Shown piece after piece: positions 5,914-63,503 of a DNA stretch of 64,000 nucleotides; position 1 is the first letter of the stretch, and every line of letters starts with the position of its first letter. The position numbers and the translations under genes were made by a program. Source of the stretch: Verrucomicrobiia bacterium (GTDB taxonomy: Bacteria > Verrucomicrobiota > Verrucomicrobiia > Limisphaerales > UBA11358); assembly GCA_035945675.1 (NCBI GenBank), contig DASZAB010000034.1:30255-94254 (forward strand), given 5' to 3'. The notes beneath the pieces were generated by a model. That model had not been told where the DNA came from. It searched no databases and was given only the letters and a program-made list of their open reading frames with translations.

Positions 5914-7284
5914 TCAGCGCATCAACTGCTTTTCGAGATAATGGACGACTTGCCGGACATTGGAATCCACTTCCATGCGGTCTTTCACGAGGCGGCAGGC
6001 GTGGAGGACGGTGCCATGATCGCGGCCGCCGAAGGCTTCGCCGATGGTATTGAGCGAGCTTTCGGTCATCTGGCGCGACAAATACATGGCCACCTGGCGC
6101 GGGAAGGCAATGTTTTCCGGGCGCCGCTTACTGGTCATGTCGGCGAGGCGGATGTCAAAATGTTCGGCCACACGCTTCTGGATGACTTCGATGCTGATGG
6201 AGAGGCGGCCTTCTTCATGGAGGATTTCGCGCAACAAACCTTCCACCACTTCGATGGTCAATTTCCGGCCGGTGAGCGAGGCGTAGGAAGCCACGCGGAT
6301 GAGCGCGCCTTCGAGCCGGCGGACGTTGGTGCGAATACGACTGGCGAGGAAATTCAAGATGTCCTCGGGCAGGGTGACCCCCATGAGTTGGGCCTTTTTG
6401 TTCAGGATGGCCAGGCGCATTTCGATGTCCGGCGGCTGCAGATCGGTGACCAGCCCCCATTCAAACCGGGAAACGAGGCGGTGTTCAAGATTCTGGATTT
6501 CGCTGGCCGGGCGGTCACAGGTGAGCACGATCTGCTTGTGCGCCTCGTGCAATGCGTTGAACGTGTGAAAAAATTCCTCCTGAATCCGTTCCTTGCCCGC
6601 CAGGAATTGGATGTCATCAATCAACAACACATCGGTTTGCCGGTATTTTTTGCGGAACCGGGCCAGTTGGTTGTTTTGAATGCCATCAATGTACTCGTTC
6701 GTGAACTTCTCGGATGAGACGTAGGCGACGCGCGCGCTCTTCTTGTTGCTGGCGACATACTGGCCGATGGCATGGAGCAGATGAGTCTTGCCCAGACCGA
6801 CTCCGCCGTAGAGGAAGAGCGGATTATAGGATTTGCCGGGGGCCTGGGCGACGGCCAGCGCGGCGGCGTAGGCGAAATTGTTGTTGTTGCCGACGACAAA
6901 GGTGTCGAAGGTGTTTTTGGGGTTGAAATTGATTTCCCCATTGTATGACGCGCGCTCGTGGCTGGACTCGGCGGCTCGGGTGGGTTTGGCTGGCGCTGGG
7001 GCGACGGGTGCGGAAAGCGCGTGGGCGCCGTTCCCGGCAGCAATTTTGAATTTGATTTGCACCTGGCGGCCGGCGGCGACAGTCAAGGCATCCTGCAACA
7101 GGCTGAGATAATTGTCTTTAAGCCAGACCTCGCAGAATTCGTTGGCCACCTCCAGAGTAACGCAGTTTGGATCAACCGCATTGGCACGCAACGGGGCGAA
7201 CCACATGTTGTAAGTGTCTGTATTCAACCTGGAACGAAGATGTTCCCGCGCTGAATTCCAAATTTTTTCTGCCGAAAGCTGCAT
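5914..7284 (-). CDS. dnaA: Chromosomal replication initiator protein DnaA
   Basis: AAA module GGVGLGKTHLL and LLIDDIQFL. C-terminal DNA-binding domain with PRQVAMYL and FGGRDHGTVLHA. Confidence 0.97.
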   Translation of the reverse strand: MQLSAEKIWNSAREHLRSRLNTDTYNMWFAPLRANAVDPNCVTLEVANEFCEVWLKDNYLSLLQDALTVAAGRQVQIKFKIAAGNGAHALSAPVAPAPAKPTRAAESSHERASYNGEINFNPKNTFDTFVVGNNNNFAYAAALAVAQAPGKSYNPLFLYGGVGLGKTHLLHAIGQYVASNKKSARVAYVSSEKFTNEYIDGIQNNQLARFRKKYRQTDVLLIDDIQFLAGKERIQEEFFHTFNALHEAHKQIVLTCDRPASEIQNLEHRLVSRFEWGLVTDLQPPDIEMRLAILNKKAQLMGVTLPEDILNFLASRIRTNVRRLEGALIRVASYASLTGRKLTIEVVEGLLREILHEEGRLSISIEVIQKRVAEHFDIRLADMTSKRRPENIAFPRQVAMYLSRQMTESSLNTIGEAFGGRDHGTVLHACRLVKDRMEVDSNVRQVVHYLEKQLMR

Positions 7285-7739: not shown

Positions 7740-8156
<417 letters not shown>

Positions 8157-8430
8157 TTATCCCCGGTGGGATTCCAATAGGAACCAAATGAATGTCTTGG
8201 AGGGCAGAACACACTTATTGGTTTGGCGCGGAAAAAGAAATAACACTTATACTTTGTCCATTCAGGTTGACATAAATAAGCGTTTGTGATTTTATATGTG
8301 CAAGGTGCGACGGGTTCCTGGCTCTGTCGACGGTGTTCTTTGAATTTCTGTAACAGTTTTCGTTCCGGGTATCGGTACGCTCCCGGATCGGAGTTCTTCG
8401 TAATCCTACGTACGTACTCTCGAAAATTCC

Positions 8431-8478
8431 CCGGGTCTCTCGGCCACCCCCTGGCCGCTTGACCCGGTTTTTCTTTTT
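8431..8478 (+). terminator. Putative intrinsic terminator of a short non-coding transcript upstream of ileS
   Basis: Stem CCGGGTC (8431-8437) / GACCCGG (8461-8467) with nested GGCCA/TGGCC, followed by TTTTTCTTTTT. Confidence 0.45.
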
Positions 8479-8524
8479 AACGCCCGATTCAAACGGCCAT
8501 GCGGCGGCGATGCCATTTGGAAAT

Positions 8525-8603
8525 TTCGGTGGGCGGGTGTCCTCGCGAGCCGGCTCGTCAGGAGCCACGCCCCCCCAAAAATGTACTGTTACCGCCGACG
8601 CGG
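8525..8603 (+). repeat. Family A palindromic element, copy A1 (intergenic)
   Basis: GGTGGGCGGGTGTCCTCGCGAGCCGGCTCGTCAGGAGCCACGCCCCC plus shared flank AAAATGTAC..TACC. Homologous to the copies at 22144, 55646, 58070 and 61988. Confidence 0.8.
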
Positions 8604-8755
8604 CAGTAACCTGATTTGAGGTTTGGGTCCCGCGTTCACGCGGTCCCGGGCCGCCTAACGGCGGAACTCCGGGCAAATTCAGGACAGTACCGCCGCCGCG
8701 CGTTCGTTGACACTGATTTTCCCGGCTGTTAGCTTTGTTCCTTCTGAAAGTCACG

Positions 8756-11700
8756 ATGGACTACAAAAATACATTAAACCTGCCGCGCACCGATTTCCCG
8801 ATGAAAGCCGACCTCGTGGCCCGGGAGCCGGAACGGCTGAATCAGTGGGAAAAGACCGGGCTTTACCGGAAAATCCAAGCCGCCCGCGCCGGAGCCGGAG
8901 AAAAGTTCGTTTTGCACGACGGCCCGCCTTTTGCCAACGGCGACGTCCATATCGGCACCGCGCTGAACAAGATTCTCAAGGACATCGTTGTTAAATATAA
9001 GACCTTACGCGGTTTTAGCGCGCCGTATGTGCCGGGCTGGGATTGTCATGGATTGCCCATTGAATTCAAGGTTTCCCAGGAGATGCGCAAGGCGGGCGAT
9101 GCCAGCGCCGACGCCGCGACCATTCGCAAGGCCTGTGAAACGTACGCCCGGAAGTACATTGACATCCAGCGTGTGCAGTTCAAACGGCTCGGTGTGCTGG
9201 GCGACTGGGAGAATCCCTACCTTACGCTGAACAAGGAATACGAGGCCGAAGAATTGCGGTTGTTCGCCAACATCGTTGAGAAAGGCTTTGTTTATCGCGG
9301 GAAAAAGCCGGTTTATTGGAGCATTCCCTGCCGTACGGCGCTCGCCGAGGCGGAAGTGGAATACAAGGACCACGTCAGCCCGAGCATTTACGTAAAGTTT
9401 CCCGTTAGTGGCCGGGCAAACACCTTTGTGCTCATCTGGACGACGACCCCCTGGACGCTTCCGGCGAACCTGGCTGTCGCTTACAACGATAAATTCCAAT
9501 ACCTCCAGGTCGGAGTTGGTGGCGAAAAATACATTTTATTCCGTGGTTTGCTTCCGGTCGTCGCCGAAAAATGCGGCTGGGTAAATTACACGCAATCGCC
9601 TTTCCCGACCGAAGAGCTCGCCAGGTTGGAATACCAGCACCCCTTCATCCCGGCGCGTAAAGGCAAAGCCTACGCTGCCGATTTTGTTACCAGCGACACC
9701 GGCACGGGTTTCGTCCATATAGCTCCCGGCCACGGTCTCGAAGACTATGGCCTGGGCTCGTCCGTCGGTCTGCCGATTTATTCGCCGGTGGACGATGACG
9801 GCAAGTTCGCCTACACGAACGAGTTGCCCGCGGAGCAACAGATGCCAAAGGAAATGATCGGCAAATCGATTCTCGAAAAGCATGGCAAAAGTGACGCCAA
9901 TGAAGCGGTTTTGCACGAACTCCGCGCGCACCATGCCCTGCTGCACCAGGAAAATTATCATCACAGCTACCCGCACTGCTGGCGCAGCAAAACGCCCGTC
10001 ATCTTCCGCGCGATGGACCAATGGTTCATCGAGATTGACCATGTGCTGGAGGGCACTGCTTCGTCAGTGCCCGAACATTTGGGGCAGCGACGAAGCGCCG
10101 CCCTCCAGGGTGAAACCTTTCGCAGTATCGCCCTCGCCGAAATTGACCGCGTGAATTGGGTTCCCGACTGGGGCGTCAATCGCATCAAAGCCGCCGTTGC
10201 CACAAGGCCCGATTGGTGCATTTCCCGGCAACGCACCTGGGGCGTGCCGATTCCGGCGTTTTACGACGCCAGGGGTGAACCGATTCTCGATGCGCAAATC
10301 GTCCGCAACGCCGCCGATTTGATAGAGAAACACGGCTCGAACGTCTGGTTCGAGAAATCCGCCGTCGACCTCTGGTCGCTCTTGAAACCGGAAGGTTGGA
10401 AGGGCGCGGAAGCGGTTTCCAAATCCAGCGACACCCTTGACGTGTGGATTGATTCCGGCAGCTCGTCACGAAGCGTGTTGATGCGACGGGAAGAATTGCA
10501 TCATCCCGCAGGACAGGCTTCCCGCCTGTCTCCATCTGAGAACAGAAAGTCAGAGACAGCCAAGATGCCGGTCGTGCAATGGCAGGCCGACATGTATTTC
10601 GAAGGTTCCGACCAGCATCGCGGCTGGTTTCAATCATCGCTGCTGCTCTCGCTGGCGGGCAATGGCACGGCCCCGTTCAAAATGGTGCTCACGAGCGGCT
10701 TTGTCGTGGATGCGGATCGCGAGAAGATTTCCAAGAGCAAACAGGGCGGCTATGAAAAACCGCAGACCGCCGAGGCCTATGTGAAGAAATGGGGCGCGGA
10801 CATCGTGCGACTGTGGGTGGCCTCGCAGGATTATCGCAACGACATCATCGTGAGCGAGGAGCGCATCGCCAAGGTCGCCGAGACCTACCGCGTCATCCGC
10901 AACGCGCTGCGCTATCAGCTCTCGAATCTTTACGATTTCGATCCGGCCAATCATTCCGTGCCGGACGAAAAGCTGACCGGCCTGGATCGCTGGATTTTGG
11001 GCGAATTCTCGAAACTGGAGCAGGAAGTTATCCAGGCTTACGACAATTACGAATTTCATGTGGTTTACCAGAAGGTCAGCCAGTTCCTTGCCGTTGAGCT
11101 CTCGGCGATCTACCACGACGTCATCAAGGACCGGCTTTACACCGACCCGGCGAATTCGCAGCGCCGCCGCTCGACGCAGACCACGCTGCACCGGCTCGTG
11201 ACCGGCCTTTGCCAGATGCTCGCGCCGATTTTGTCGTTCACGGCGGACGAGGCCTGGGAATTTGTGCCGGGGAAGAAAGAAGATTCTGTTCACGAAGTGA
11301 CTTGGCAGCCGCAATCATTAAAATCCCGTGCAGGACAACCGGAAGCTTGGTCGCTTCTTTTTGAATGGAGAGATCGGCTTTTGCCGGAATTGGAAAAAAT
11401 GCGGAAGGACAAATTGATTGGCAAATCTTTGGAATCAAAAATCGCCATTCCCTTTGCCGGCAAATCAGAACAATTCGACTCGTTGAGTTTTGTTGGTGGC
11501 AACGTTCAATCCTTGAAAGAGCTTTTGAATGTTTCGCAACTTTCAATTTGGCAATCGGACGGTTCGCCAGCCCCCCAGGAGGCAGAAGGAATGTTTAGCG
11601 CGGAAGAATTGAATGCTGTGCATTCGAGTCGGGAAGGATTTGCGATTAAGGTTTTGCACGCCGACGGCCAGAAATGCGAGCGCTGCTGGCATTGGGAAAC

Positions 11701-11779
11701 GGATGTCGGCTCGAATCCGGAGCACCCGACCATTTGCGGGCGTTGCGTCGCGGCGGTGCTGCAAGCCAAAGCATCATAG
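8756..11779 (+). CDS. ileS: Isoleucine--tRNA ligase (type 1, C-terminal zinc finger)
   Basis: HIGH region [16 protein letters not shown]-like [16 protein letters not shown]-terminal CERCWHW..CGRC. ATG at 8756 ([16 protein letters not shown]). Confidence 0.97.
10049..10105 (+). repeat. In-frame palindromic insertion 1 in ileS
   Basis: 17-nt imperfect inverted repeat GAGGGCACTGCTTCGTC / GACGAAGCGCCGCCCTC, 57 nt in total. Encodes [19 protein letters not shown]. The segment is absent from the E. coli IleS sequence as I recall it. Confidence 0.7.
10508..10579 (+). repeat. In-frame hairpin-repeat insertion 2 in ileS
   Basis: Perfect hairpin GACAGGC-ttccc-GCCTGTC (10512-10530) plus a decayed second arm GAGACAGCCAAGATGCCGGTC. 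Encodes [24 protein letters not shown], just before the GSDQHRGWF motif. Confidence 0.65.
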
Positions 11780-11853
11780 AAAAGCCGCCTTGCTGGTGGC
11801 AGACACGCATCAAAAATCACGCCGGCTGCCGGGTGAGGCGATGCAGTGAATTG

Positions 11854-11909
11854 AACAACAAAGAAACAAAGTCACGAAGTCCGCTTCGTTCCCCGGTTGC
11901 TTTGTTGTT
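11854..11909 (+). other. Nested hairpin downstream of ileS (possible terminator or repeat)
   Basis: Outer stem AACAACAAAG / CTTTGTTGTT and inner stem ACGAAG-tccg-CTTCGT. There is no clear T-run. Confidence 0.35.
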
Positions 11910-11985
11910 AAAAAGTGGCTTCGGCTCCCGTCTCAGATTTGAGCAGGCCTGAGGCTTGCGCTACCTTAGCTTCGTTGCCAAAGCA

Positions 11986-12594
11986 ATGAACAACGAAATC
12001 AAAACCGCCGCCGCCGATTCGCAATCGCCGGCAGTGCGAAAATTCCGGCTGGTGTTGAGCTTGCTGGTTGCTGTGCTGGCCTTGCTCGCGTTCGAGGTGT
12101 TTTATGTCTTTTCCGCACCCTCCCTGGATCCCGAACAAAAGGCATTGCAGGCATGGGAAGGCGTCCGCGCGCCGGATTTCTCCGTGACCAATCTGGACGG
12201 CCGAACGGTTCATCTGGCCGATTTGAAGGGCAAACGGGTCGTGCTGAATTTTTGGGCGACGTGGTGTCCGCCGTGTCTGGAAGAAATTCCCAATTTCATT
12301 AAATTGCGCGGCGATACCTCGCTCACGAATGTGGTCATCCTCGGCATCAGCACGGACGACCCGGCGCCACAGAAGGCTTTCGCGCGGCGGCAAGGCATCA
12401 ATTATCCGCTTACCATCATGGGGAACGCGCCGTCACCATATCAAGACGTGGACACGATTCCCGTGACGATGGTCATCGATCGCAACGGCATTATCCAGCA
12501 CGTGCTGTTTGGCCCGCAGGATTTTGCGCACCTGAAAACATACGCAGCGGAATCTGATTTTGCCGGAACCGTCAAAGCCGCGCCGGTGAATTGA
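11986..12594 (+). CDS. TlpA/ResA-family thiol:disulfide oxidoreductase (membrane-anchored thioredoxin)
   Basis: N-terminal TM helix. Active site NFWATWCPPC. Redoxin-fold motifs. Confidence 0.85.
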   Translation: MNNEIKTAAADSQSPAVRKFRLVLSLLVAVLALLAFEVFYVFSAPSLDPEQKALQAWEGVRAPDFSVTNLDGRTVHLADLKGKRVVLNFWATWCPPCLEEIPNFIKLRGDTSLTNVVILGISTDDPAPQKAFARRQGINYPLTIMGNAPSPYQDVDTIPVTMVIDRNGIIQHVLFGPQDFAHLKTYAAESDFAGTVKAAPVN

Positions 12595-12667: not shown

Positions 12668-13807
12668 TCAACCTTGCGCCGGCTGCTGCTGCGTGAGGCA
12701 GTGCAACGTACCGCGACCGAGAACCAGGTCCACCGCGTGGAGGCCCACGACCGGCCGGTCTTTGAACAGTTCGCCCAAAATCCCCAGGGCAAGGCGGTCG
12801 TTGGGATCATTAAATGTCGGGACCAGGACGGCGGCGTTGCCGATGTAGAAATTTGCATAGCTCGCGGGCAAACGTTGGCTGTCAAAATAAAGCGGCGACG
12901 GCATGGGCAGCTCGACCACCTCCGGCTTGCCGCCGTCTTCCAGCCGTAGATCCCGGATGCGCTCCCGGTTTTCGGCGAGCGGGCGGTAATTCACGTCTTT
13001 TGAATTTTTTTCGCGCACCAGCACAAGCGTCCTGGGATTAACGAAGCGGCAAATGTCGTCAATGTGCCCGTGGGTGTCATCGCCGACCGGGCCCTTGGCC
13101 AGCCAAAAGACGTTCCGGACACCAAGATAATTTTTCAACGTCTTCTCGATTTCTGTTTTGCCGAGGCCGGGATTGCGGACCTGGACTTTAGGATCGAGGT
13201 AACATTGCTCCGTTGAGAGCAGCGTGCCGCGGCCGTTCAACTCGATGCCGCCGCCTTCAATGACGAATGGCCGGCCGTGGCATTCGGCGTGAAAAAGTTT
13301 CATTCGCAAAATGCGCGCGGCGGTCTCGGGCACTTTTGCGTCCTTGCGCCAGTTGCGGTATCTGGCCCAGCCGTTGAAATGGAAATGAACGATGGCGGTC
13401 TCGGTTTTGCCCTCACCCGGCCTCCGGCCACCCTCTCCCATCGGATGGGAGAGGGACAGGGGTGAGGGTCGTTTGACAAAAATCGGGCCGCTATCGCGCA
13501 TCCAGCTCCGATTCGTCGGGTGCACGGTAAACCGGATTTTCTCCAAATTGCAGCCGGCGCACTTGAGGATTCGGCGCGCAGAATTTTCCTCGGCTTGGTG
13601 GCGGACGAGAATGCAAACAATTTCACCCGGGGAAATTTTTCGCACCATTTCACCATAGACCCAGGGAATAACGGCGAATTTGCCCGGCCAGTCGCTGGCG
13701 TTATGCGGCCAGCTGAGCCAGGTGGCTTCATGCGGTTCCCATTCTGCCGGCATCCGGTAGCCCAGGTCGGCGGGAGTTGCTGTGTTTGCGGATTGCAGGT
13801 TCACCAT
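12668..13807 (-). CDS. aguA: Agmatine deiminase (PAD_porph family)
   Basis: YRMPAEWEPHEATWLSWP, RDSGPIFV, FNGWA, DDTHGHIDD, and C-terminal GTLHCLTQQQP with the catalytic Cys. ATG at 13807 chosen. Confidence 0.85.
   Translation of the reverse strand: MVNLQSANTATPADLGYRMPAEWEPHEATWLSWPHNASDWPGKFAVIPWVYGEMVRKISPGEIVCILVRHQAEENSARRILKCAGCNLEKIRFTVHPTNRSWMRDSGPIFVKRPSPLSLSHPMGEGGRRPGEGKTETAIVHFHFNGWARYRNWRKDAKVPETAARILRMKLFHAECHGRPFVIEGGGIELNGRGTLLSTEQCYLDPKVQVRNPGLGKTEIEKTLKNYLGVRNVFWLAKGPVGDDTHGHIDDICRFVNPRTLVLVREKNSKDVNYRPLAENRERIRDLRLEDGGKPEVVELPMPSPLYFDSQRLPASYANFYIGNAAVLVPTFNDPNDRLALGILGELFKDRPVVGLHAVDLVLGRGTLHCLTQQQPAQG
13410..13468. repeat. In-frame palindromic insertion in the agmatine deiminase gene
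   Basis: Perfect 12-bp arms CCCTCTCCCATC / GATGGGAGAGGG, nested in CCCTCACC..GGTGAGGG. Encodes PSPLSLSHPMGEGGRRPGEG between the conserved RDSGPIFV and FNGWA motifs. Confidence 0.75.
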
Positions 13808-14047
13808 AAAGGTGCGCCGAGCATAATCACCTGGCCCGCTCTCGGAAATCTTGAAACGCCGTTCACTGGCTGGAGCAGCAGGGTTTACAGGGGGGATTGG
13901 TTGAGCTTCCAACCATTATAATCGCCCACATTACGAATTAGTTCAAATGAAATATTTTTAAAAAAGTGACAGTGATCGGGTGCAAATCCACCTCCCTTGA
14001 ACGACCATAAATCAGGAACAGCGATTGCTCACAACGGTCTCGCTCTT

Positions 14048-21182: not shown

Positions 21183-21247
21183 CAGGAGCCGAGGTGACGA
21201 GGCTCTGATCTTCATAATTATTAGAGCCTCCTCACGTCGGCTCCTAC
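21183..21247. repeat. Family B-like double-arm hairpin element (copy B4), 8 nt after the hldD stop
   Basis: AGGAGCCGAGGTGACGAGGCTC ... GAGCCTCCTCACGTCGGCTCCT. The arms are near-complementary. Confidence 0.7.
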
Positions 21248-47769: not shown

Positions 47770-47841
47770 GTAGCAGCCGACATGAGTCGGCTCAAACTTT
47801 GGGGATGGGGGAGTAAGGAGCGGACTCACGTCCGCTGCTAC
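47770..47841. repeat. Family B composite double-hairpin element, copy B1 (6 nt after the asd stop)
   Basis: GTAGCAGCCGACATGAGTCGGCTC..GAGCGGACTCACGTCCGCTGCTAC. Each arm is a hairpin, and the outer GTAGCAGC/GCTGCTAC closes the element. Confidence 0.85.
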
Positions 47842-50279: not shown

Positions 50280-50350
50280 GTAGCAGCCGATGTGAATCGG
50301 CTCAATCTTTGGGGAAGGGGCATAATGAGCGGACTCACGTCCGCTGCTAC
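50280..50350. repeat. Family B composite double-hairpin element, copy B2
   Basis: GTAGCAGCCGATGTGAATCGGCTC..GAGCGGACTCACGTCCGCTGCTAC. Compensatory C:G to T:A change in arm 1 relative to B1. Confidence 0.85.
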
Positions 50351-54100: not shown

Positions 54101-55756
54101 TTATTTTTCCAGGTTGTATCTGACGAAATCCAGGTCGGCGGTCCCCCCATTGGGCCCGTAGCAAAACAATGCCAGCCGCGCACCCTTCCATTTGCCGAAC
54201 TTCAATTCCACCGCCAGTCCGGTGTCGGTGTAGTGTTCGCCATCGGTACTGTAGAACAGTCGCGCCTCCTTCCCATGGTACTTGCCCCGGAACCATACGT
54301 CAGCGCCCTTTAACACCGGGCCCGCGCCATTTTCCAAGGCGATTCGCCGCACTCCGTCGCTCTGCGTTACCCCAACCCAGTCAAACCTGTCGCCGCTCAT
54401 AAAGGCAAATCCGGTGCATTGGTTTTCCGCCATGGCGCTGACATCGAACTTTGTGTCAATGAGGCCGTCCTGTCCCAACAATTTTTCGGTCAGGGTGTTG
54501 TGGGCGGTGGACAGGCCGGAGGCGGGCAAGGCGTTGAGTCGCAGCCAGCCGGGCCGGGCCGTCAGTGACCAGGAGTCATTCATTGGGTTGTGGTTCCATT
54601 GCCAGATCGGAGACAGCACCGGATCGTCGAAATCGTCGCTTCTTTGTGGATGATGAATGGGAGAAGGCCGTCCGACATAAGGTTTTTTCCATCGGTCCAC
54701 CGACTGGCCGTGATCGCCGAACACCGGCCAGTCATCTGTGCCCCAGGTGACCGGCATCAGGTAGGTGATACGTCCAAGGAAACCGCTGGATTTGAAGCAC
54801 AGAAACCACCATTGACCATCAGCCAGTTCCACGAGCGCGCCTTGATGCGGACTGCCATCAGGCAACACCACCCGCCGTTCGTACGGGCCATAAATATTGG
54901 TGGAACGGAGCATCGTCTGGCCGCCCGTGCCGACGCCGCCTTCCGGAAGGGATATGTAATACCAGCCGTTCCGTTTGAAGAGTTTTGGGCCTTCCGCCGT
55001 CGGGCCGTGATAAATTTCAACACCGTCATCCAGCAATCGCACCCCGTCCGGGCTCATGCGGTGCAGAATCAATGGGCCGGCACCCTTGAGACTATGAATG
55101 AGGTACGCCTGCCCGTCGTCATCCCAGAACGGGCAGGGATCTTCCCAGCGTTCCACGGCCCGAACGGTGAACGTTCGCGACCACGGCCCGGCTGGATTTT
55201 GGGCGTGCCACATGAATAAACCTTCGGACGGAGTACAGACGAAGACGTAATAGGTACCGTTGTGATAACGCAAGGTCGGCGCCCACGTCCCCTCACCATA
55301 GCCGGTCAGGTCATCGTACTTTGGCGACATGCTCAACCGGTGGAATACCTGGCCGATGACTTCCCAATTGACGAGATCGCGCGAATGCAACACCTGCATG
55401 CCGACGAAGTGAAAATCCGACGCGACCAGATAAAAATCGTTCCGGACGCGAATGACGTCAGGATCGGAATAATCCGCGGGCAGGACCGGATTTCGATAGG
55501 TGCCGTCGCCCTGGTCACCCCAGCTCAGTGGCGATTCGGCGGGAATGGCCGGCGGGGCCGGTTGACTGGCGGCGGTAAAGCTCATCATCATGATGCCGGT
55601 AAAAAGCGAAATGGCGCCTTTTCGGGTGAAAGTATATTCCGCAACTTTCGGTGGGGCGAGCGTCCTCGCAAGCCGGCTCGTCAGTAGCCTCGCCCCATCA
55701 AAATGTACCACTACCCGTTTCCATAGGGCGCGGATGGTTTGGGACCGGTTTACCAT
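54101..55756 (-). CDS. Glycoside hydrolase family 43 protein with C-terminal beta-sandwich domain
   Basis: YRNPVLPADYSDPDVIRVRNDFYLVAS, WAPTLRYHNGTYY, EGPKLFKRNGWYY (GH43 blades). The start is uncertain (55756 or the MMM at 55591) because a family A repeat lies in the 5' part. Confidence 0.85.
   Translation of the reverse strand: MVNRSQTIRALWKRVVVHFDGARLLTSRLARTLAPPKVAEYTFTRKGAISLFTGIMMMSFTAASQPAPPAIPAESPLSWGDQGDGTYRNPVLPADYSDPDVIRVRNDFYLVASDFHFVGMQVLHSRDLVNWEVIGQVFHRLSMSPKYDDLTGYGEGTWAPTLRYHNGTYYVFVCTPSEGLFMWHAQNPAGPWSRTFTVRAVERWEDPCPFWDDDGQAYLIHSLKGAGPLILHRMSPDGVRLLDDGVEIYHGPTAEGPKLFKRNGWYYISLPEGGVGTGGQTMLRSTNIYGPYERRVVLPDGSPHQGALVELADGQWWFLCFKSSGFLGRITYLMPVTWGTDDWPVFGDHGQSVDRWKKPYVGRPSPIHHPQRSDDFDDPVLSPIWQWNHNPMNDSWSLTARPGWLRLNALPASGLSTAHNTLTEKLLGQDGLIDTKFDVSAMAENQCTGFAFMSGDRFDWVGVTQSDGVRRIALENGAGPVLKGADVWFRGKYHGKEARLFYSTDGEHYTDTGLAVELKFGKWKGARLALFCYGPNGGTADLDFVRYNLEK
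55646..55722 (+). repeat. Family A palindromic element, copy A3 (inside the 5' part of the GH43 ORF, inverted relative to the gene)
   Basis: TTTCGGTGGGGCGAGCGTCCTCGCAAGCCGGCTCGTCAGTAGCCTCGCCCCATCAAAATGTACCACTACC. Near-identical to A1, including the flanks. Confidence 0.85.
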
Positions 55757-59115: not shown

Positions 59116-59276
59116 TTCGAAACCAGGCACCAATCGCCAGGCGGGAACTTTTAAAAGCAATCTCTGCAAAAGCCATTGCCCGGCCTTCGGAGCGCCGAGC
59201 ATCGCCTCGGCTCCTCGGGATAGTCAATCGTTTCATGCCGAGATAGTGCTCGGCGTTCCTGTTTTGCAGATATTTC

Positions 59277-60645: not shown

Positions 60646-60703
60646 GTAGCAGCGAACGTAAGTTCGCTCCAATTGAAATGAGCCGACTCACGTCGGCTGC
60701 TAC
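60646..60703. repeat. Family B element, copy B3 (short spacer)
   Basis: GTAGCAGCGAACGTAAGTTCGCTC..GAGCCGACTCACGTCGGCTGCTAC. Lies between the divergent DUF456 and lipoprotein genes. Confidence 0.8.
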
Positions 60704-61157: not shown

Positions 61158-63296
61158 TTACTTCCTCGTCCGCTTCAATTTTTTATAACTCACCGGCTTC
61201 GCTTCCGGTTTTTCGCCGTTGACCATGCGTTTCAATTCCTTGATCTGGTCGCGGAGCAGGGCGGCTTTTTCAAATTCCAGCTTTTCCGCCGCTGCCAGCA
61301 TTTCGGTTTCGAGTTCGCTGATGGTTTCCGTCAGGTCCACGTCCATTGCGGCATCTTTCAGGACGGACGCGCCGGCTTCGCGTTTCGATTCGTAAACGGC
61401 CAGGCTTTCTTCAACCGCGCGGCTGACGCTGCGGGGTGTGATGTTGTGTTCCGCGTTGTAAGCGATTTGTTTTTGGCGGCGATATTCGGTCACGGCCAGA
61501 AATCTGTTGATGCTGTTCGTCATCACGTCGGCATAGAGAATCACCTCACCGTGCAAATGCCGCGCGGCGCGGCCCGCGGTCTGGATCAAACTCGTTTCAC
61601 TGCGCAGAAAACCTTCCTTGTCCGCGTCGAGGATCGCCACCAATGAAACTTCCGGCAAATCCAGACCTTCCCGCAACAGGTTGATGCCGACGAGCACATC
61701 GAATTCGCCTTTGCGGAGCGAACGCAAAATCTCCACGCGCTCAATGGCGTCAATCTCACTGTGGAGATACTGGACGTTGACGCCGATGCCGCGCAGGTAA
61801 TCGGTCAGTTCCTCGGCAGTGCGTTTGGTGAGTGTCGTTACAAGGATGCGCTCCTTCGCCTCGGCACGTTTGCGGCATTCCTCGATCAGATCGTCGATCT
61901 GGCCTTTGAGCGGTTTGAGCGTGACCTTGGGGTCGATCAGACCGGTGGGGCGCACCACGAGTTCGACGACGCCCGGCATTTGTTGGTGGGGCGAGGCTAC
62001 TGACGAGCCGGCTGTTTCGATTCGGCTCGCGGGGACGCTCGCCCCACCGTTCGATTCGGCTCGCGGGGACGCTCGCCCCGCGGTGGCACTTTCCCGCGAC
62101 CATTCCAGTTCGCGTTTGGCCGGAGTGGCGCTGACGTAAATCGTCTGGCCTTGCATTCCTTGAAATTCCTCGAATTTCAGCGGGCGATTATCCAGCGCAC
62201 TCGGCAGGCGGAAACCGTACTCAACCAAAACGGTCTTCCGCGAGCGGTCCCCTTCGAACATCGCGCCGATTTGCGGGACGGTCGCGTGAGATTCATCAAT
62301 CACCAGCAGGTAATCGTTCGGAAAAAAGTCAATGACGGTTGCCGGGCGCGAGCCGGGCGGGCGTCCGGCGATGTGGCGCGAATAATTTTCGATGCCGGAA
62401 CAGACGCCCATCTCCTCCATCATCTCCAGGTCGAATTCCGTGCGCTGCTTGATGCGCTGGGCTTCGAGCAGTTTGCCATTCTTTTCAAACCAGACGATGC
62501 GCTCGCGCAATTCCTCGCGGATGGCGAGAGCGGCGCGCTTCATCTTGTCGGCGGTGGTGACAAACTGCTTTCCCGGGAAAATGGTCACGGCGTCGAGCGT
62601 TTCGGTTTTGTTTCCCGTCAACGGATCGAAACGGGTGAGCCGCTCGATTTGCTCGCCGAAAAATTCGACGCGCAGGCCGTCTTCGCGCCCCGCTGGCCGG
62701 ACTTCCACGGTGTCACCGCGCACGCGGAAATGGCCGCGTTCGAACGCGATGTCATTCCGGTCGTACTGCAAATCCACCAGGCGCGCGAGGAGTTGCTCGC
62801 GCGAGATTTCCAGGCCGACGCGGATGGGAATGACCATCGCTTCGTAATCTTCCTTGCTGCCGATGCCGTAAATGCACGACACGCTGGCAACGACGACGAC
62901 ATCCCGGCGCGAGAACAGCGAACTCATGGTTGAGAGCCGCAGTCGCTCGATTTCTTCGTTCCGGCTGGAATCCTTCTCGATGAATGTGTCCGTGCGCGGG
63001 ATGTAGGCTTCCGGCTGGTAATAATCGAAGTAACTGACGAAGTATTCGACGGCGTTGCGGGGAAAAAATCCCTTGAACTCGGCGTAAAGCTGCGCGGCCA
63101 GTGTTTTGTTGTGGGAAATGACCAGCGTGGGTTTGTCCACGTTTTTGATGACGTTGGCGATGGCGAAGGTTTTCCCGGAGCCGGTGACGCCGAGGAGCGT
63201 CTGGTGTTTTGCGCCCGACAAAATGCCATCGGTCAGCTTCGCAATCGCTTGCGGCTGGTCACCGGCGGGCTGGAAGGGCGCGACGAGTTCGAACAT
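61158..63296 (-). CDS. uvrB: Excinuclease ABC subunit B
   Basis: GVTGSGKTF, DESH, YVSATP, VRPTGL, LREGLDLPEV, GRAARH, C-terminal UVR domain EKAALLRDQIKELK. ATG 63296. Confidence 0.97.
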   Translation of the reverse strand: MFELVAPFQPAGDQPQAIAKLTDGILSGAKHQTLLGVTGSGKTFAIANVIKNVDKPTLVISHNKTLAAQLYAEFKGFFPRNAVEYFVSYFDYYQPEAYIPRTDTFIEKDSSRNEEIERLRLSTMSSLFSRRDVVVVASVSCIYGIGSKEDYEAMVIPIRVGLEISREQLLARLVDLQYDRNDIAFERGHFRVRGDTVEVRPAGREDGLRVEFFGEQIERLTRFDPLTGNKTETLDAVTIFPGKQFVTTADKMKRAALAIREELRERIVWFEKNGKLLEAQRIKQRTEFDLEMMEEMGVCSGIENYSRHIAGRPPGSRPATVIDFFPNDYLLVIDESHATVPQIGAMFEGDRSRKTVLVEYGFRLPSALDNRPLKFEEFQGMQGQTIYVSATPAKRELEWSRESATAGRASPRAESNGGASVPASRIETAGSSVASPHQQMPGVVELVVRPTGLIDPKVTLKPLKGQIDDLIEECRKRAEAKERILVTTLTKRTAEELTDYLRGIGVNVQYLHSEIDAIERVEILRSLRKGEFDVLVGINLLREGLDLPEVSLVAILDADKEGFLRSETSLIQTAGRAARHLHGEVILYADVMTNSINRFLAVTEYRRQKQIAYNAEHNITPRSVSRAVEESLAVYESKREAGASVLKDAAMDVDLTETISELETEMLAAAEKLEFEKAALLRDQIKELKRMVNGEKPEAKPVSYKKLKRTRK
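61988..62083 (-). repeat. Family A element, copy A5, with a 34-nt tandem re-duplication of one arm, in frame inside uvrB
   Basis: GGGGCGAGGCTACTGACGAGCCGGC..TCGATTCGGCTCGCGGGGACGCTCGCCCC occurs twice. Translated as ATAGRASPRAESNGGASVPASRIETAGSSVASPH. Confidence 0.85.
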
Positions 63297-63503
63297 GCGA
63301 AATGAAGGTAGAAGCGGAACCAACGAGAGTCAATGAAGCGCCAGCCCGGCTCTAAAGTCTGGCAGGGCGCGTCACTCCGTGCGCGCCGTGGGCCCCGTAC
63401 GCCGGCAGGCAGGGGACCGCCCGTCCTGCCCAATTTGAAATCAGGCCTCCGATCCACCTCGGAGCTTCTCTTTATTGGAAAATCTGATTAGACTCCTTGT
63501 CCA

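What the first reader, a model, noticed from the sequence alone, without database searches (positions are those of the whole stretch)
10049..10105. ileS insertion 1: 57-nt (19-codon) palindromic element in the region preceding the DWCISRQR motif
GAGGGCACTGCTTCGTC (10049-10065) and GACGAAGCGCCGCCCTC (10089-10105) are 17-nt inverted repeats with 14 of 17 positions complementary. An internal perfect hairpin is GGCACTG-cttcgt-CAGTGCC. The segment encodes [19 protein letters not shown]. It accounts for most of about 23 residues that are extra relative to the E. coli IleS sequence as I recall it ([24 protein letters not shown]). Its length is an exact multiple of three.
Basis: partly seen in the sequence, partly recalled or inferred. 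Interest (0 to 1): 0.55.

Follow-up and report, generated by a model that had tools for sequence, protein, structure and literature searches.

The report
Mobile palindromic repeat inside ileS
The hairpin-forming stretch inside this bacterium's isoleucyl-tRNA synthetase gene is a copy of a small mobile palindromic repeat (a REP doublet) that landed in frame in an essential gene. This kind of event is already documented, but here the same spot holds about fifteen different repeat families in related bacteria.

Summary
The arms are 10046-10075 and 10079-10108 (30 nt, 80% complementary); the fold is -46 kcal/mol, z = -5.8.

By family consensus the element is T-GGAGG...CCTCC-A, window 10047-10107. 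It consists of two inverted 25-nt units, each a small hairpin with an 8-bp stem and a CTTCGT loop.

A degenerate one-arm pattern found more than 112 stretches of DNA, against about 4 expected by chance. Nearly all are in Verrucomicrobiota genomes, with many copies per genome. In five loci the same units lie next to a gene for a REP-associated tyrosine transposase (RAYT), and in four of them the units flank it on both sides.

About ten housekeeping genes carry in-frame copies, among them uvrC, dnaE, recJ, panC and fmt.

Eight of 80 ileS relatives have an empty site (IDH-QK-FR). The others carry about 15 unrelated palindromic families at the same codon, most of them with GTAG...CTAC ends. Two ileS genes 98.8% identical over 3 kb carry different elements.

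Verdict: an in-frame REP doublet (REPIN/BIME-like), comparable to Rickettsia RPEs. Intragenic REPs were already reported in a verrucomicrobium (Di Nocera et al. 2013), so this is a new member of a known kind. The turnover at one site is the part worth following up.

The parts
8756..11779 (+). ileS, encoding isoleucyl-tRNA synthetase (1007 aa from the ATG at 8756). It is the host gene; it is intact and reads through both palindromic inserts.
   Evidence: ORF. There are 120 homologs at 73-100% identity, carrying Pfam tRNA-synt_1, Anticodon_1 and zf-FPG_IleRS and named isoleucine--tRNA ligase. It matches solved IleRS structures.
10043..10117 (+). All the extra coding material at site 1: 25 codons ([25 protein letters not shown]) where empty-site orthologs have 2 codons (QK, EK, DQ or RK).
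   Evidence: Protein alignment. DNA of 80 related loci. The orthologous insert has the same junctions in L001/L091, L166, L193, L194 and L195.
10047..10107 (+). The REP doublet itself (family consensus T-GGAGG...CCTCC-A), 61 nt.
   Evidence: Boundaries come from 63 doublets in genome loci: T in 53 of 63 at the left end and A in 57 of 63 at the right end, with heterogeneous flanks.
10048..10072 (+). Left REP unit, GGAGGGCACTGCTTCGTCAGTGCCC. The stem is GGGCACTG/CAGTGCCC and the loop is CTTCGT.
   Evidence: I5. It matches the scan pattern. Of 116 units, 97 keep both freely variable stem pairs complementary, in five or more different variants.
10073..10081 (+). Spacer between the two units (GAACATTTG). 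It varies in sequence and length among family members.
10082..10106 (+). Right REP unit in inverted orientation, GGGCAGCGACGAAGCGCCGCCCTCC. The window copy has a synonymous T-to-C change (GCT to GCC) that weakens pairing, compared with orthologous copies.
   Evidence: Comparison with L193, L194, L166 and L001.
10508..10579 (+). Second palindromic in-frame insert in ileS ([24 protein letters not shown]), of an unrelated family. In other genomes that family sits at site 1.
   Evidence: 79% identical to the site-1 insert of L058; site 2 also holds many families or is empty.

Best explanation
The segment is a REP doublet (REPIN/BIME-like): two inverted copies of a 25-nt repetitive palindromic unit. 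It belongs to a repeat family dispersed through Verrucomicrobiota genomes and associated with its own REP-associated tyrosine transposase (RAYT, an HUH/Y1 enzyme related to IS200/IS605 TnpA).

An ancestor of this clade acquired the doublet in frame in ileS, at a variable junction just after the QWFIEIDH strand. A solved IleRS has no residues at that junction. The unit has no stop codon in any of the six frames, so the gene stayed open and now encodes about 21 extra residues, plus a few junction codons. The insert has since been inherited vertically.

Shown:
- the palindrome;
- family membership and copy number;
- RAYT genes flanked by the same units in related genomes;
- empty sites in orthologs;
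- in-frame copies in other housekeeping genes;
- many unrelated families at the same ileS codon.

Inferred:
- mobilisation was by the RAYT, through single-stranded hairpin DNA;
- the encoded peptide is a tolerated surface loop with no function of its own;
- the variety at this site comes from repeated insertions into a permissive and/or REP-attracting spot, followed by short-patch homologous exchange between ileS alleles.
For: Palindrome: 30-nt arms, z = -5.84.

My calculation gives about 4 expected by chance (19 specified bases, 596 Gb, both strands). Nearly all hits are in Verrucomicrobiota MAGs, with up to about 13 stretches in one assembly. Of the elements, 63 are doublets and 53 singlets.

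Covariation in the small hairpin: 97 of 116 units keep both free pairs complementary, as CT/AG 42, TT/AA 30, GC/GC 12 and AC/GT 7.

RAYT: L106 2608-3096 encodes a 163-aa protein that matches NCBIfam NF047646, REP-associated tyrosine transposase, at 98.8 bits against a cut-off of 80. It is flanked by inverted units at 2568(+) and 3140(-). Orthologs lie next to units in L151, L167, L163 and L183, and four of the five loci have units on both sides.

Empty sites in orthologs. A solved IleRS aligns across the gap.

Other in-frame copies: uvrC-, dnaE-, recJ-, panC-, fmt-, P-type ATPase- and helicase-like genes.

Vertical inheritance: same junctions, and insert identity tracks flank identity (74/75 against 293/300; 63/75 against 244/300).

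Precedent: intragenic REPs, most numerous in Opitutus terrae, and mostly dimers encoding 20-30 aa (PMC3733652).
Against: - No second copy and no RAYT lie in the 64-kb window. Copy number and transposase in this particular genome are therefore unknown.
- The unit carries GGAG, not the canonical GTAG tag of RAYT-associated REPs.
- No transposition event or target motif was demonstrated. Flanks of the 63 doublets show no consensus.
- The surface-loop claim is not backed by a usable model: the AlphaFold run gave pLDDT 45.
- Gene identities for the other in-frame copies were read from characteristic motifs, not tested with profile searches.
Confidence: 0.85

Rival explanations
1. A selected mRNA or DNA hairpin. 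On this view the structure is kept at this position because it does something for ileS, such as pausing translation for co-translational folding, providing an RNase site, or acting as a gyrase or supercoiling site. The repeat families are then only interchangeable suppliers of a hairpin.
For: Nearly every insert at this codon in about 70 relatives folds as a strong hairpin (z -4 to -12), whatever its sequence. A second site about 460 nt downstream behaves the same way.
Against: - The hairpin is an intrinsic property of REP doublets everywhere, including intergenic copies.
- Eight of 80 relatives do without any insert.
- Some inserts are decayed or not palindromic: L030 z -1.0, L027 z 0.1, L053 and L075.
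- The window copy carries a substitution that weakens pairing.
Confidence: 0.07
2. A MITE-like element moved by a DDE transposase, or a hairpin generated locally by replication template switching, with the RAYT association coincidental.
For: The doublet looks like a short element with terminal inverted repeats. Quasi-palindrome correction can create and perfect hairpins in place.
Against: - There is no target-site duplication at the junctions.
- The same 25-nt unit occurs as singlets and doublets at more than 100 places.
- It flanks RAYT genes in inverted orientation in four independent loci.
- Local generation cannot explain identical units in unrelated genes.
Confidence: 0.05
3. An ordinary lineage-specific loop of IleS whose palindromic look is chance or a codon-usage effect.
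For: This junction varies in length among bacteria. Another solved IleRS (8wnf) has an 11-residue linker there.
Against: z = -5.84 with none of 200 shuffles folding as well. More than 112 genomic copies of the unit against about 4 expected. The identical element occurs in unrelated genes.
Confidence: 0.01

Closest known systems
REP / REPIN / BIME elements with RAYT transposases (Nunvar 2010; Bertels & Rainey 2011; Ton-Hoang 2012; survey by Di Nocera, De Gregorio & Rocco 2013, PMC3733652)
   Same: - The unit is a short imperfect palindrome, 25 nt with an 8-bp stem.
- It is dispersed in many copies, as singlets and as inverted doublets that can fold into a long hairpin.
- A single-copy-type Y1/HUH transposase gene is flanked by the same units.
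- The two halves of the doublet are systematically different stem variants (GGGCACTG... against GGGAAGCG...), like the Y and Z REPs of E. coli BIMEs.
- Di Nocera et al. already report intragenic REPs, mostly dimers encoding 20-30 aa. They are most numerous in the verrucomicrobium Opitutus terrae, often sit in repair genes, and include a REP dimer in Erythrobacter litoralis IleRS.
   Different: - This copy is inside an essential gene and is translated.
- The tag next to the stem is GGAG, not GTAG or CGTC.
- The family is nearly identical in sequence across several orders of Verrucomicrobiota, whereas classic REPs are largely species-specific.
- I found no earlier description of the same codon holding about 15 families in related genomes. 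The paper notes only that different REPs lie at about the same recB site in two Xanthomonas species.
Rickettsia palindromic elements (RPE; Ogata et al. 2000, 2002, as cited in PMC3733652)
   Same: Palindromic repeats inserted in frame in housekeeping genes that stay functional. The encoded peptides are thought to be tolerated surface additions.
   Different: - RPE-1 is longer (about 100-150 bp), confined to Rickettsia, and has no identified transposase.
- Di Nocera et al. place RPE-4 and RPE-6 among the CGTC-tagged REPs.
- No sequence similarity to the family here was seen or expected. Here a cognate RAYT is identifiable.
IS200/IS605 (IS608, ISDra2) single-strand transposition
   Same: The RAYT belongs to the same HUH/Y1 superfamily (weak Pfam PF01797 match). 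The elements are defined by subterminal hairpins and leave no target duplication.
   Different: The REP doublets carry no gene. No conserved 4-5-nt target next to insertions was found. Mobility is inferred, not observed.

Membership tests
REP/REPIN (RAYT-associated repetitive palindromes) | Short (20-40 nt) imperfect palindromic unit | tested here: met
   The units are 25 nt, with an 8-bp stem and a 6-nt loop. Stem covariation holds in 97 of 116 units.
REP/REPIN (RAYT-associated repetitive palindromes) | Many dispersed copies per genome | tested here: inconclusive
Not testable for the window's own genome: there is only one copy in 64 kb.
REP/REPIN (RAYT-associated repetitive palindromes) | Inverted doublet able to form a long hairpin (REPIN) or a mosaic of two unit types (BIME) | tested here: met
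   Of 116 elements, 63 are doublets. The window copy has 30-nt arms at 80% complementarity. The two halves are different stem variants.
REP/REPIN (RAYT-associated repetitive palindromes) | Conserved GTAG (or CGTC) tetranucleotide at one end of the unit | tested here: not met
   The unit starts (T)GGAG-GGCACTG, so the tag is GGAG, differing at the second base. Most other families at the same ileS site do end GTAG...CTAC or GTGG...CCAC. Degenerate tags are reported in PMC3733652.
REP/REPIN (RAYT-associated repetitive palindromes) | A RAYT gene flanked by the same units in inverted orientation (REPtron) | tested here: met
   L106, L167, L163 and L183 have units on both sides; L151 has one side only. 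The protein matches NF047646 above its cut-off. No RAYT lies in the window itself.
REP/REPIN (RAYT-associated repetitive palindromes) | Extragenic location | tested here: not met
   This copy lies inside ileS, in frame. Exceptions of this kind are documented.
Rickettsia palindromic elements (RPE) | In-frame insertion in conserved protein genes that remain open | tested here: met
Rickettsia palindromic elements (RPE) | Sequence membership in RPE-1 to RPE-8 and restriction to Rickettsia | not tested
   No RPE sequences were compared. The host here is a verrucomicrobium, so this is an analogy, not membership.
MITE (DDE-transposase derived) | Terminal inverted repeats with a target-site duplication | tested here: not met
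   No duplication appears at the junctions of the ileS copies or of the 63 doublets.
Rfam structured RNA families | Match to a curated covariance model | tested here: not met
   Nothing was found in 8000-12000 except a chance miRNA hit upstream of ileS (E = 0.059).

The most novel reading that the evidence does not exclude
Two loops of ileS in these Verrucomicrobiota may act as landing pads where REP doublets of many families repeatedly replace one another. On this reading a resident REP attracts the next one (REP-targets-REP). An essential gene is a safe harbour, because only precise in-frame loss is tolerated. The resulting cassettes are then shuffled between lineages by very short homologous-exchange tracts. 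That would give a natural, datable record of REPIN insertion, excision and replacement, something that has been hard to observe.
Probability: 0.3. Interest if true: 0.65.

Novelty: new member of a known kind. Interest (0 to 1): 0.45.

Why it matters
On its own, this is one more example of selfish palindromic DNA tolerated inside an essential gene. That phenomenon has been known since the Rickettsia RPEs, and since 2013 for REPs in a verrucomicrobium.

Three things go a little further:

1. The element's family can be tied to a specific RAYT. That gives a candidate enzyme for in-frame invasion of genes, which the RPE work never had.
2. The family is nearly invariant across orders of a phylum.
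3. One codon of ileS carries about 15 different families in close relatives, including a pair of genes 98.8% identical around it. This offers a tractable system for measuring REPIN turnover and short-patch recombination in uncultured bacteria.

In practice, these inserts inflate protein lengths. They also create spurious shared peptides ([22 protein letters not shown] and others) that can mislead homology searches and annotation.

Tried and rejected
- Exact and 3-mismatch searches and short-word BLAST of the element against the window found no other copy.
- An Rfam scan of 8000-12000 found nothing relevant.
- The AlphaFold2 model of the 1007-aa IleRS, built with 26 close homologs, had mean pLDDT 44.9 and pTM 0.29. 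It is unusable for showing that the insert is a surface loop, so no fold search was run.
- I tried to fetch the Erythrobacter litoralis IleRS, which has a REP dimer at residues 467-488 according to PMC3733652, to see whether it is the same loop. A padded query returned only short fragments without the REP peptide. This remains unresolved.
- I looked for a conserved target motif next to 63 doublets and found none.
- tblastn with the RAYT against the window gave no hit.
- I considered that the different families at site 1 might be one hairpin drifting through compensatory changes. I rejected this as a general explanation because the families match dispersed copies elsewhere at 75-98% identity. 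It may still apply among the related GTAGC[AC]GC.GACGT variants.

Full report
**1. The observation**

The window encodes an intact isoleucyl-tRNA synthetase gene at 8756-11779 on the + strand. Its closest relatives, at 73-100% identity, are named isoleucine--tRNA ligase of Verrucomicrobiota, Verrucomicrobiia or Limisphaerales.

The two 17-nt arms are complementary at 14 of 17 positions. The inner hairpin is perfect. The in-frame peptide is [19 protein letters not shown].

The palindrome is in fact longer. Its arms are 10046-10075 and 10079-10108 (30 nt, 80% complementary). The 76 nt spanning it (10040-10115) fold at -46 kcal/mol, with z = -5.84 against dinucleotide shuffles, none of which folds as well. 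No second copy lies in the window.

**2. It is an insertion**

I aligned 120 IleS relatives and the DNA of 80 related metagenomic ileS loci.

- Seven proteins and eight loci have only two codons here: ...[12 protein letters not shown]..., DNA CAC-CAGAAA-TTCCGC.
- The window has 25 codons at 10043-10117.
- A solved IleRS (8c9f) aligns from residue 416 directly to residue 417 across the gap. Another solved IleRS (8wnf) has an 11-residue linker there. The junction is therefore naturally variable in length.

**3. It is a copy of a dispersed repeat**

Both arms of the window element, and both arms of its ortholog in L001, fit the pattern GGAGGNCNNNGCTTCGTCNNTGCCC. My estimate for chance is about 4 (19 specified bases, 596 Gb, two strands).

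Almost all hits are in Verrucomicrobiota MAGs: Limisphaerales, Chthoniobacterales, Terrimicrobiaceae and others. Several fall in each genome, with about 13 stretches in assembly DATMLG01. About ten hits in unrelated phyla lack a second arm and look like chance matches.

The family consensus is T-GGAGGGCACTGCTTCGTCAGTGCCC-(spacer)-GGGAAGCGACGAAGCGCTTCCCTCC-A. This is two inverted 25-nt units, each of which is itself a small hairpin. I counted 63 doublets and 53 singlets.

The pattern left two stem pairs free. In 97 of 116 units both pairs are complementary, in at least five variants: CT/AG 42, TT/AA 30, GC/GC 12, AC/GT 7 and AT/AT 2. About 14% would be expected by chance. The small hairpin is therefore the conserved unit.

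In window coordinates:

| Part | Coordinates |
|---|---|
| Left unit | 10048-10072 |
| Spacer | 10073-10081 |
| Right unit | 10082-10106 |
| Whole doublet | 10047-10107 |

**4. It has a transposase**

In L106 two inverted units, at 2568(+) and 3140(-), bracket a 163-aa ORF with an HUH motif (PDHIHFF) and a YVWRNPV motif. The protein matches NCBIfam NF047646, REP-associated tyrosine transposase, at 98.8 bits against a cut-off of 80. It matches Pfam Y1_Tnp only weakly.

Orthologs at 48-89% identity lie next to the same units in L151, L167, L163 and L183. Four of the five loci have units on both sides. This is the REPtron arrangement that defines RAYT-associated REPs. No RAYT lies in the 64-kb window.

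**5. In-frame copies are common**

Among the genome loci, 48 elements lie in frames that stay open for at least 50 codons on both sides. Many of those frames are probably spurious. About ten are in recognisable housekeeping genes, identified from characteristic motifs in the flanking translation and not by profile search:

| Gene (by motif) | Loci |
|---|---|
| ileS | L091, L166 |
| uvrC-like (NLPDLILIDGGKGQ) | L099, L113 |
| dnaE-like | L157, L182 |
| recJ-like | L148 |
| panC-like | L081, L100 |
| fmt-like | L133 |
| P-type ATPase (DKTGT) | L143 |
| helicase-like | L086, L112, L088, L165 |
| YyaL-like | L186 |
| miaA-like | L184 |

The units contain no stop codon in any of the six frames; stops arise only in some spacers.

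**6. History of this copy**

The same insert with the same junctions is present in L193, L194, L166, L195 and L001/L091. Insert identity to the window tracks flank identity: 74/75 against 293/300, 74/75 against 275/300, 69/75 against 286/300, 63/75 against 244/300 and 62/75 against 239/300. It is therefore an old, vertically inherited insertion. The window copy has one synonymous T-to-C change that weakens the pairing.

**7. The hot spot**

The unexpected result concerns this codon across relatives. Seventy-three of the 80 related loci (plus the window) carry an insert of 39-138 nt here. The inserts fall into 18 sequence clusters, and about 15 of those clusters are palindromic.

Nearly all fold as strong hairpins, with z from -4 to -12. 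Most end GTAG...CTAC, and one family ends GTGG...CCAC. Those are the canonical REP tags.

The same families occur elsewhere:
- at a second ileS site about 460 nt downstream, occupied in the window by 10508-10579;
- at other places, mostly outside ileS, including window 21184-21247, 47770-47841 and 50280-50350.

Site-1 and site-2 families occur in almost every combination across an NJ tree of the proteins.

L037 and L061 differ at only 37 of 3000 flanking positions, yet they carry unrelated elements. Eleven of those 37 differences lie within -22 to +12 of the insert, and the upstream ones are at third codon positions. This looks like a short patch copied from a diverged ileS allele rather than a fresh transposition.

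Two further observations point to replacement in place:
- The el1 clade and the GTAGCGGCG family share the downstream flank GG(A/T)GAAAC(C/T), encoding GET.
- A helicase-like gene has either an el1 doublet, or an el1 half followed by an unrelated palindrome, at the same position.

No primary-sequence target was detectable next to 63 doublets.

**8. Mechanism**

Best supported: a RAYT-mobilised REP doublet was inserted, presumably as single-stranded hairpin DNA, into a length-tolerant junction of IleRS. It survived because the length of the added material keeps the frame and the unit has no stops. The peptide is then a passenger.

The transposition chemistry, the surface location and the neutrality are inferences. 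The diversity at the site is best explained by three things together: several independent insertions into a permissive and possibly REP-attracting spot, occasional loss, and short-tract exchange between alleles.

A selected hairpin function cannot be excluded. It is disfavoured by the empty alleles, by decayed inserts and by the weakening substitution in the window copy.

**9. What is already known**

Di Nocera, De Gregorio and Rocco (2013, PMC3733652) surveyed GTAG- and CGTC-tagged REPs. They reported:
- intragenic copies in several species, most numerous for GTAG repeats in the verrucomicrobium Opitutus terrae;
- that more than half are dimers or grouped repeats encoding 20-30 residues;
- that many lie in replication and repair genes;
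- that tRNA synthetase genes carry them, including a CGTC dimer in Erythrobacter litoralis IleRS at residues 467-488;
- that different REPs lie at about the same recB site in two Xanthomonas species.

Rickettsia RPEs are the classic analogue. My literature searches found no description of this GGAG-tagged family, or of many families sharing one codon.

**10. Verdict**

The thing itself is a new member of a known kind. The cross-genome turnover at fixed codons of ileS is the part that might repay further work.

Noticed in passing
window 61158-63323 (-), palindrome 61985-62048: The uvrB ORF (GVTGSGKTF ... VVRPTGLIDPKV) carries an in-frame extra segment of about 35-40 aa (RESATAGRASPRAESNGGASVPASRIETAGSSVASPHQQMPG). 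It is encoded by a 64-nt palindrome of another family (GGTGGGGCGAGG...). This fits the reported bias of intragenic REPs towards repair genes.
   Followed up: partly
window 10508-10579: A second in-frame palindromic insert in ileS ([24 protein letters not shown]). This site also holds ten or more different families in relatives. It is empty in relatives whose local sequence is IAARPEIRGKDKPFQC.
   Followed up: partly
window 8524-8579 and 55646-55703: Two more copies of the GGTGGGGCG...CGCCCCACC palindrome family. One lies in the ileS upstream region. The other lies near the start of a long open frame and may be upstream of the true start codon.
   Followed up: no
window 12668-13912 (-), around 13420-13480: The agmatine-deiminase-like ORF (PAD_porph in the syntenic locus L193) contains PSPLSLSHPMGEGGRRPGEGK. 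This looks like another repeat-derived in-frame insert. The same peptide type (PLTRPSATLSPPGGERDGVRG) follows an el1 half-element in L088 and L165.
   Followed up: no
window 21184-21247, 47770-47841, 50280-50350, 60673-60703, 1-61, 59189-59259: Further strong hairpins (-35 to -56 kcal/mol). Several are GTAG...CTAC doublets of the family that occupies ileS site 1 in other genomes (AADVS...LTSAAT). They appear to be intergenic.
   Followed up: partly
L037 vs L061 (ileS loci): These loci are 98.8% identical over 3 kb around site 1 but carry unrelated elements there. Eleven of the 37 mismatches fall within -22 to +12 of the insert. This suggests a very short homologous-exchange tract that carries the element plus a few flanking codons.
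   Followed up: partly
L086, L112 vs L088, L165 (helicase-like gene): At the same position, two genomes have an el1 doublet (in L086 with a duplicated spacer). The other two have only the left el1 unit, followed by an unrelated GC-rich palindrome. This is a composite that suggests one repeat inserting into or replacing another.
   Followed up: no
record titles (e.g. DATNHM01 'Limnocylindrales', DATJYM01 'Acidiferrales', DATJNM01 'Sulfopaludibacter', CAWJRT01 'Spirochaetota'): Several MAGs labelled as other phyla carry multiple full el1 doublets. One of them (DATJYM01, locus L091) carries a verrucomicrobial-type ileS with the insert. Their taxonomic labels or binning may be wrong.
   Followed up: no
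window 5914-7284 (-), 7740-8078 (-): dnaA and a P-II (glnB-like) gene lie just upstream of ileS. The P-II-ileS-thioredoxin-like-agmatine deiminase order is conserved in L193.
   Followed up: no
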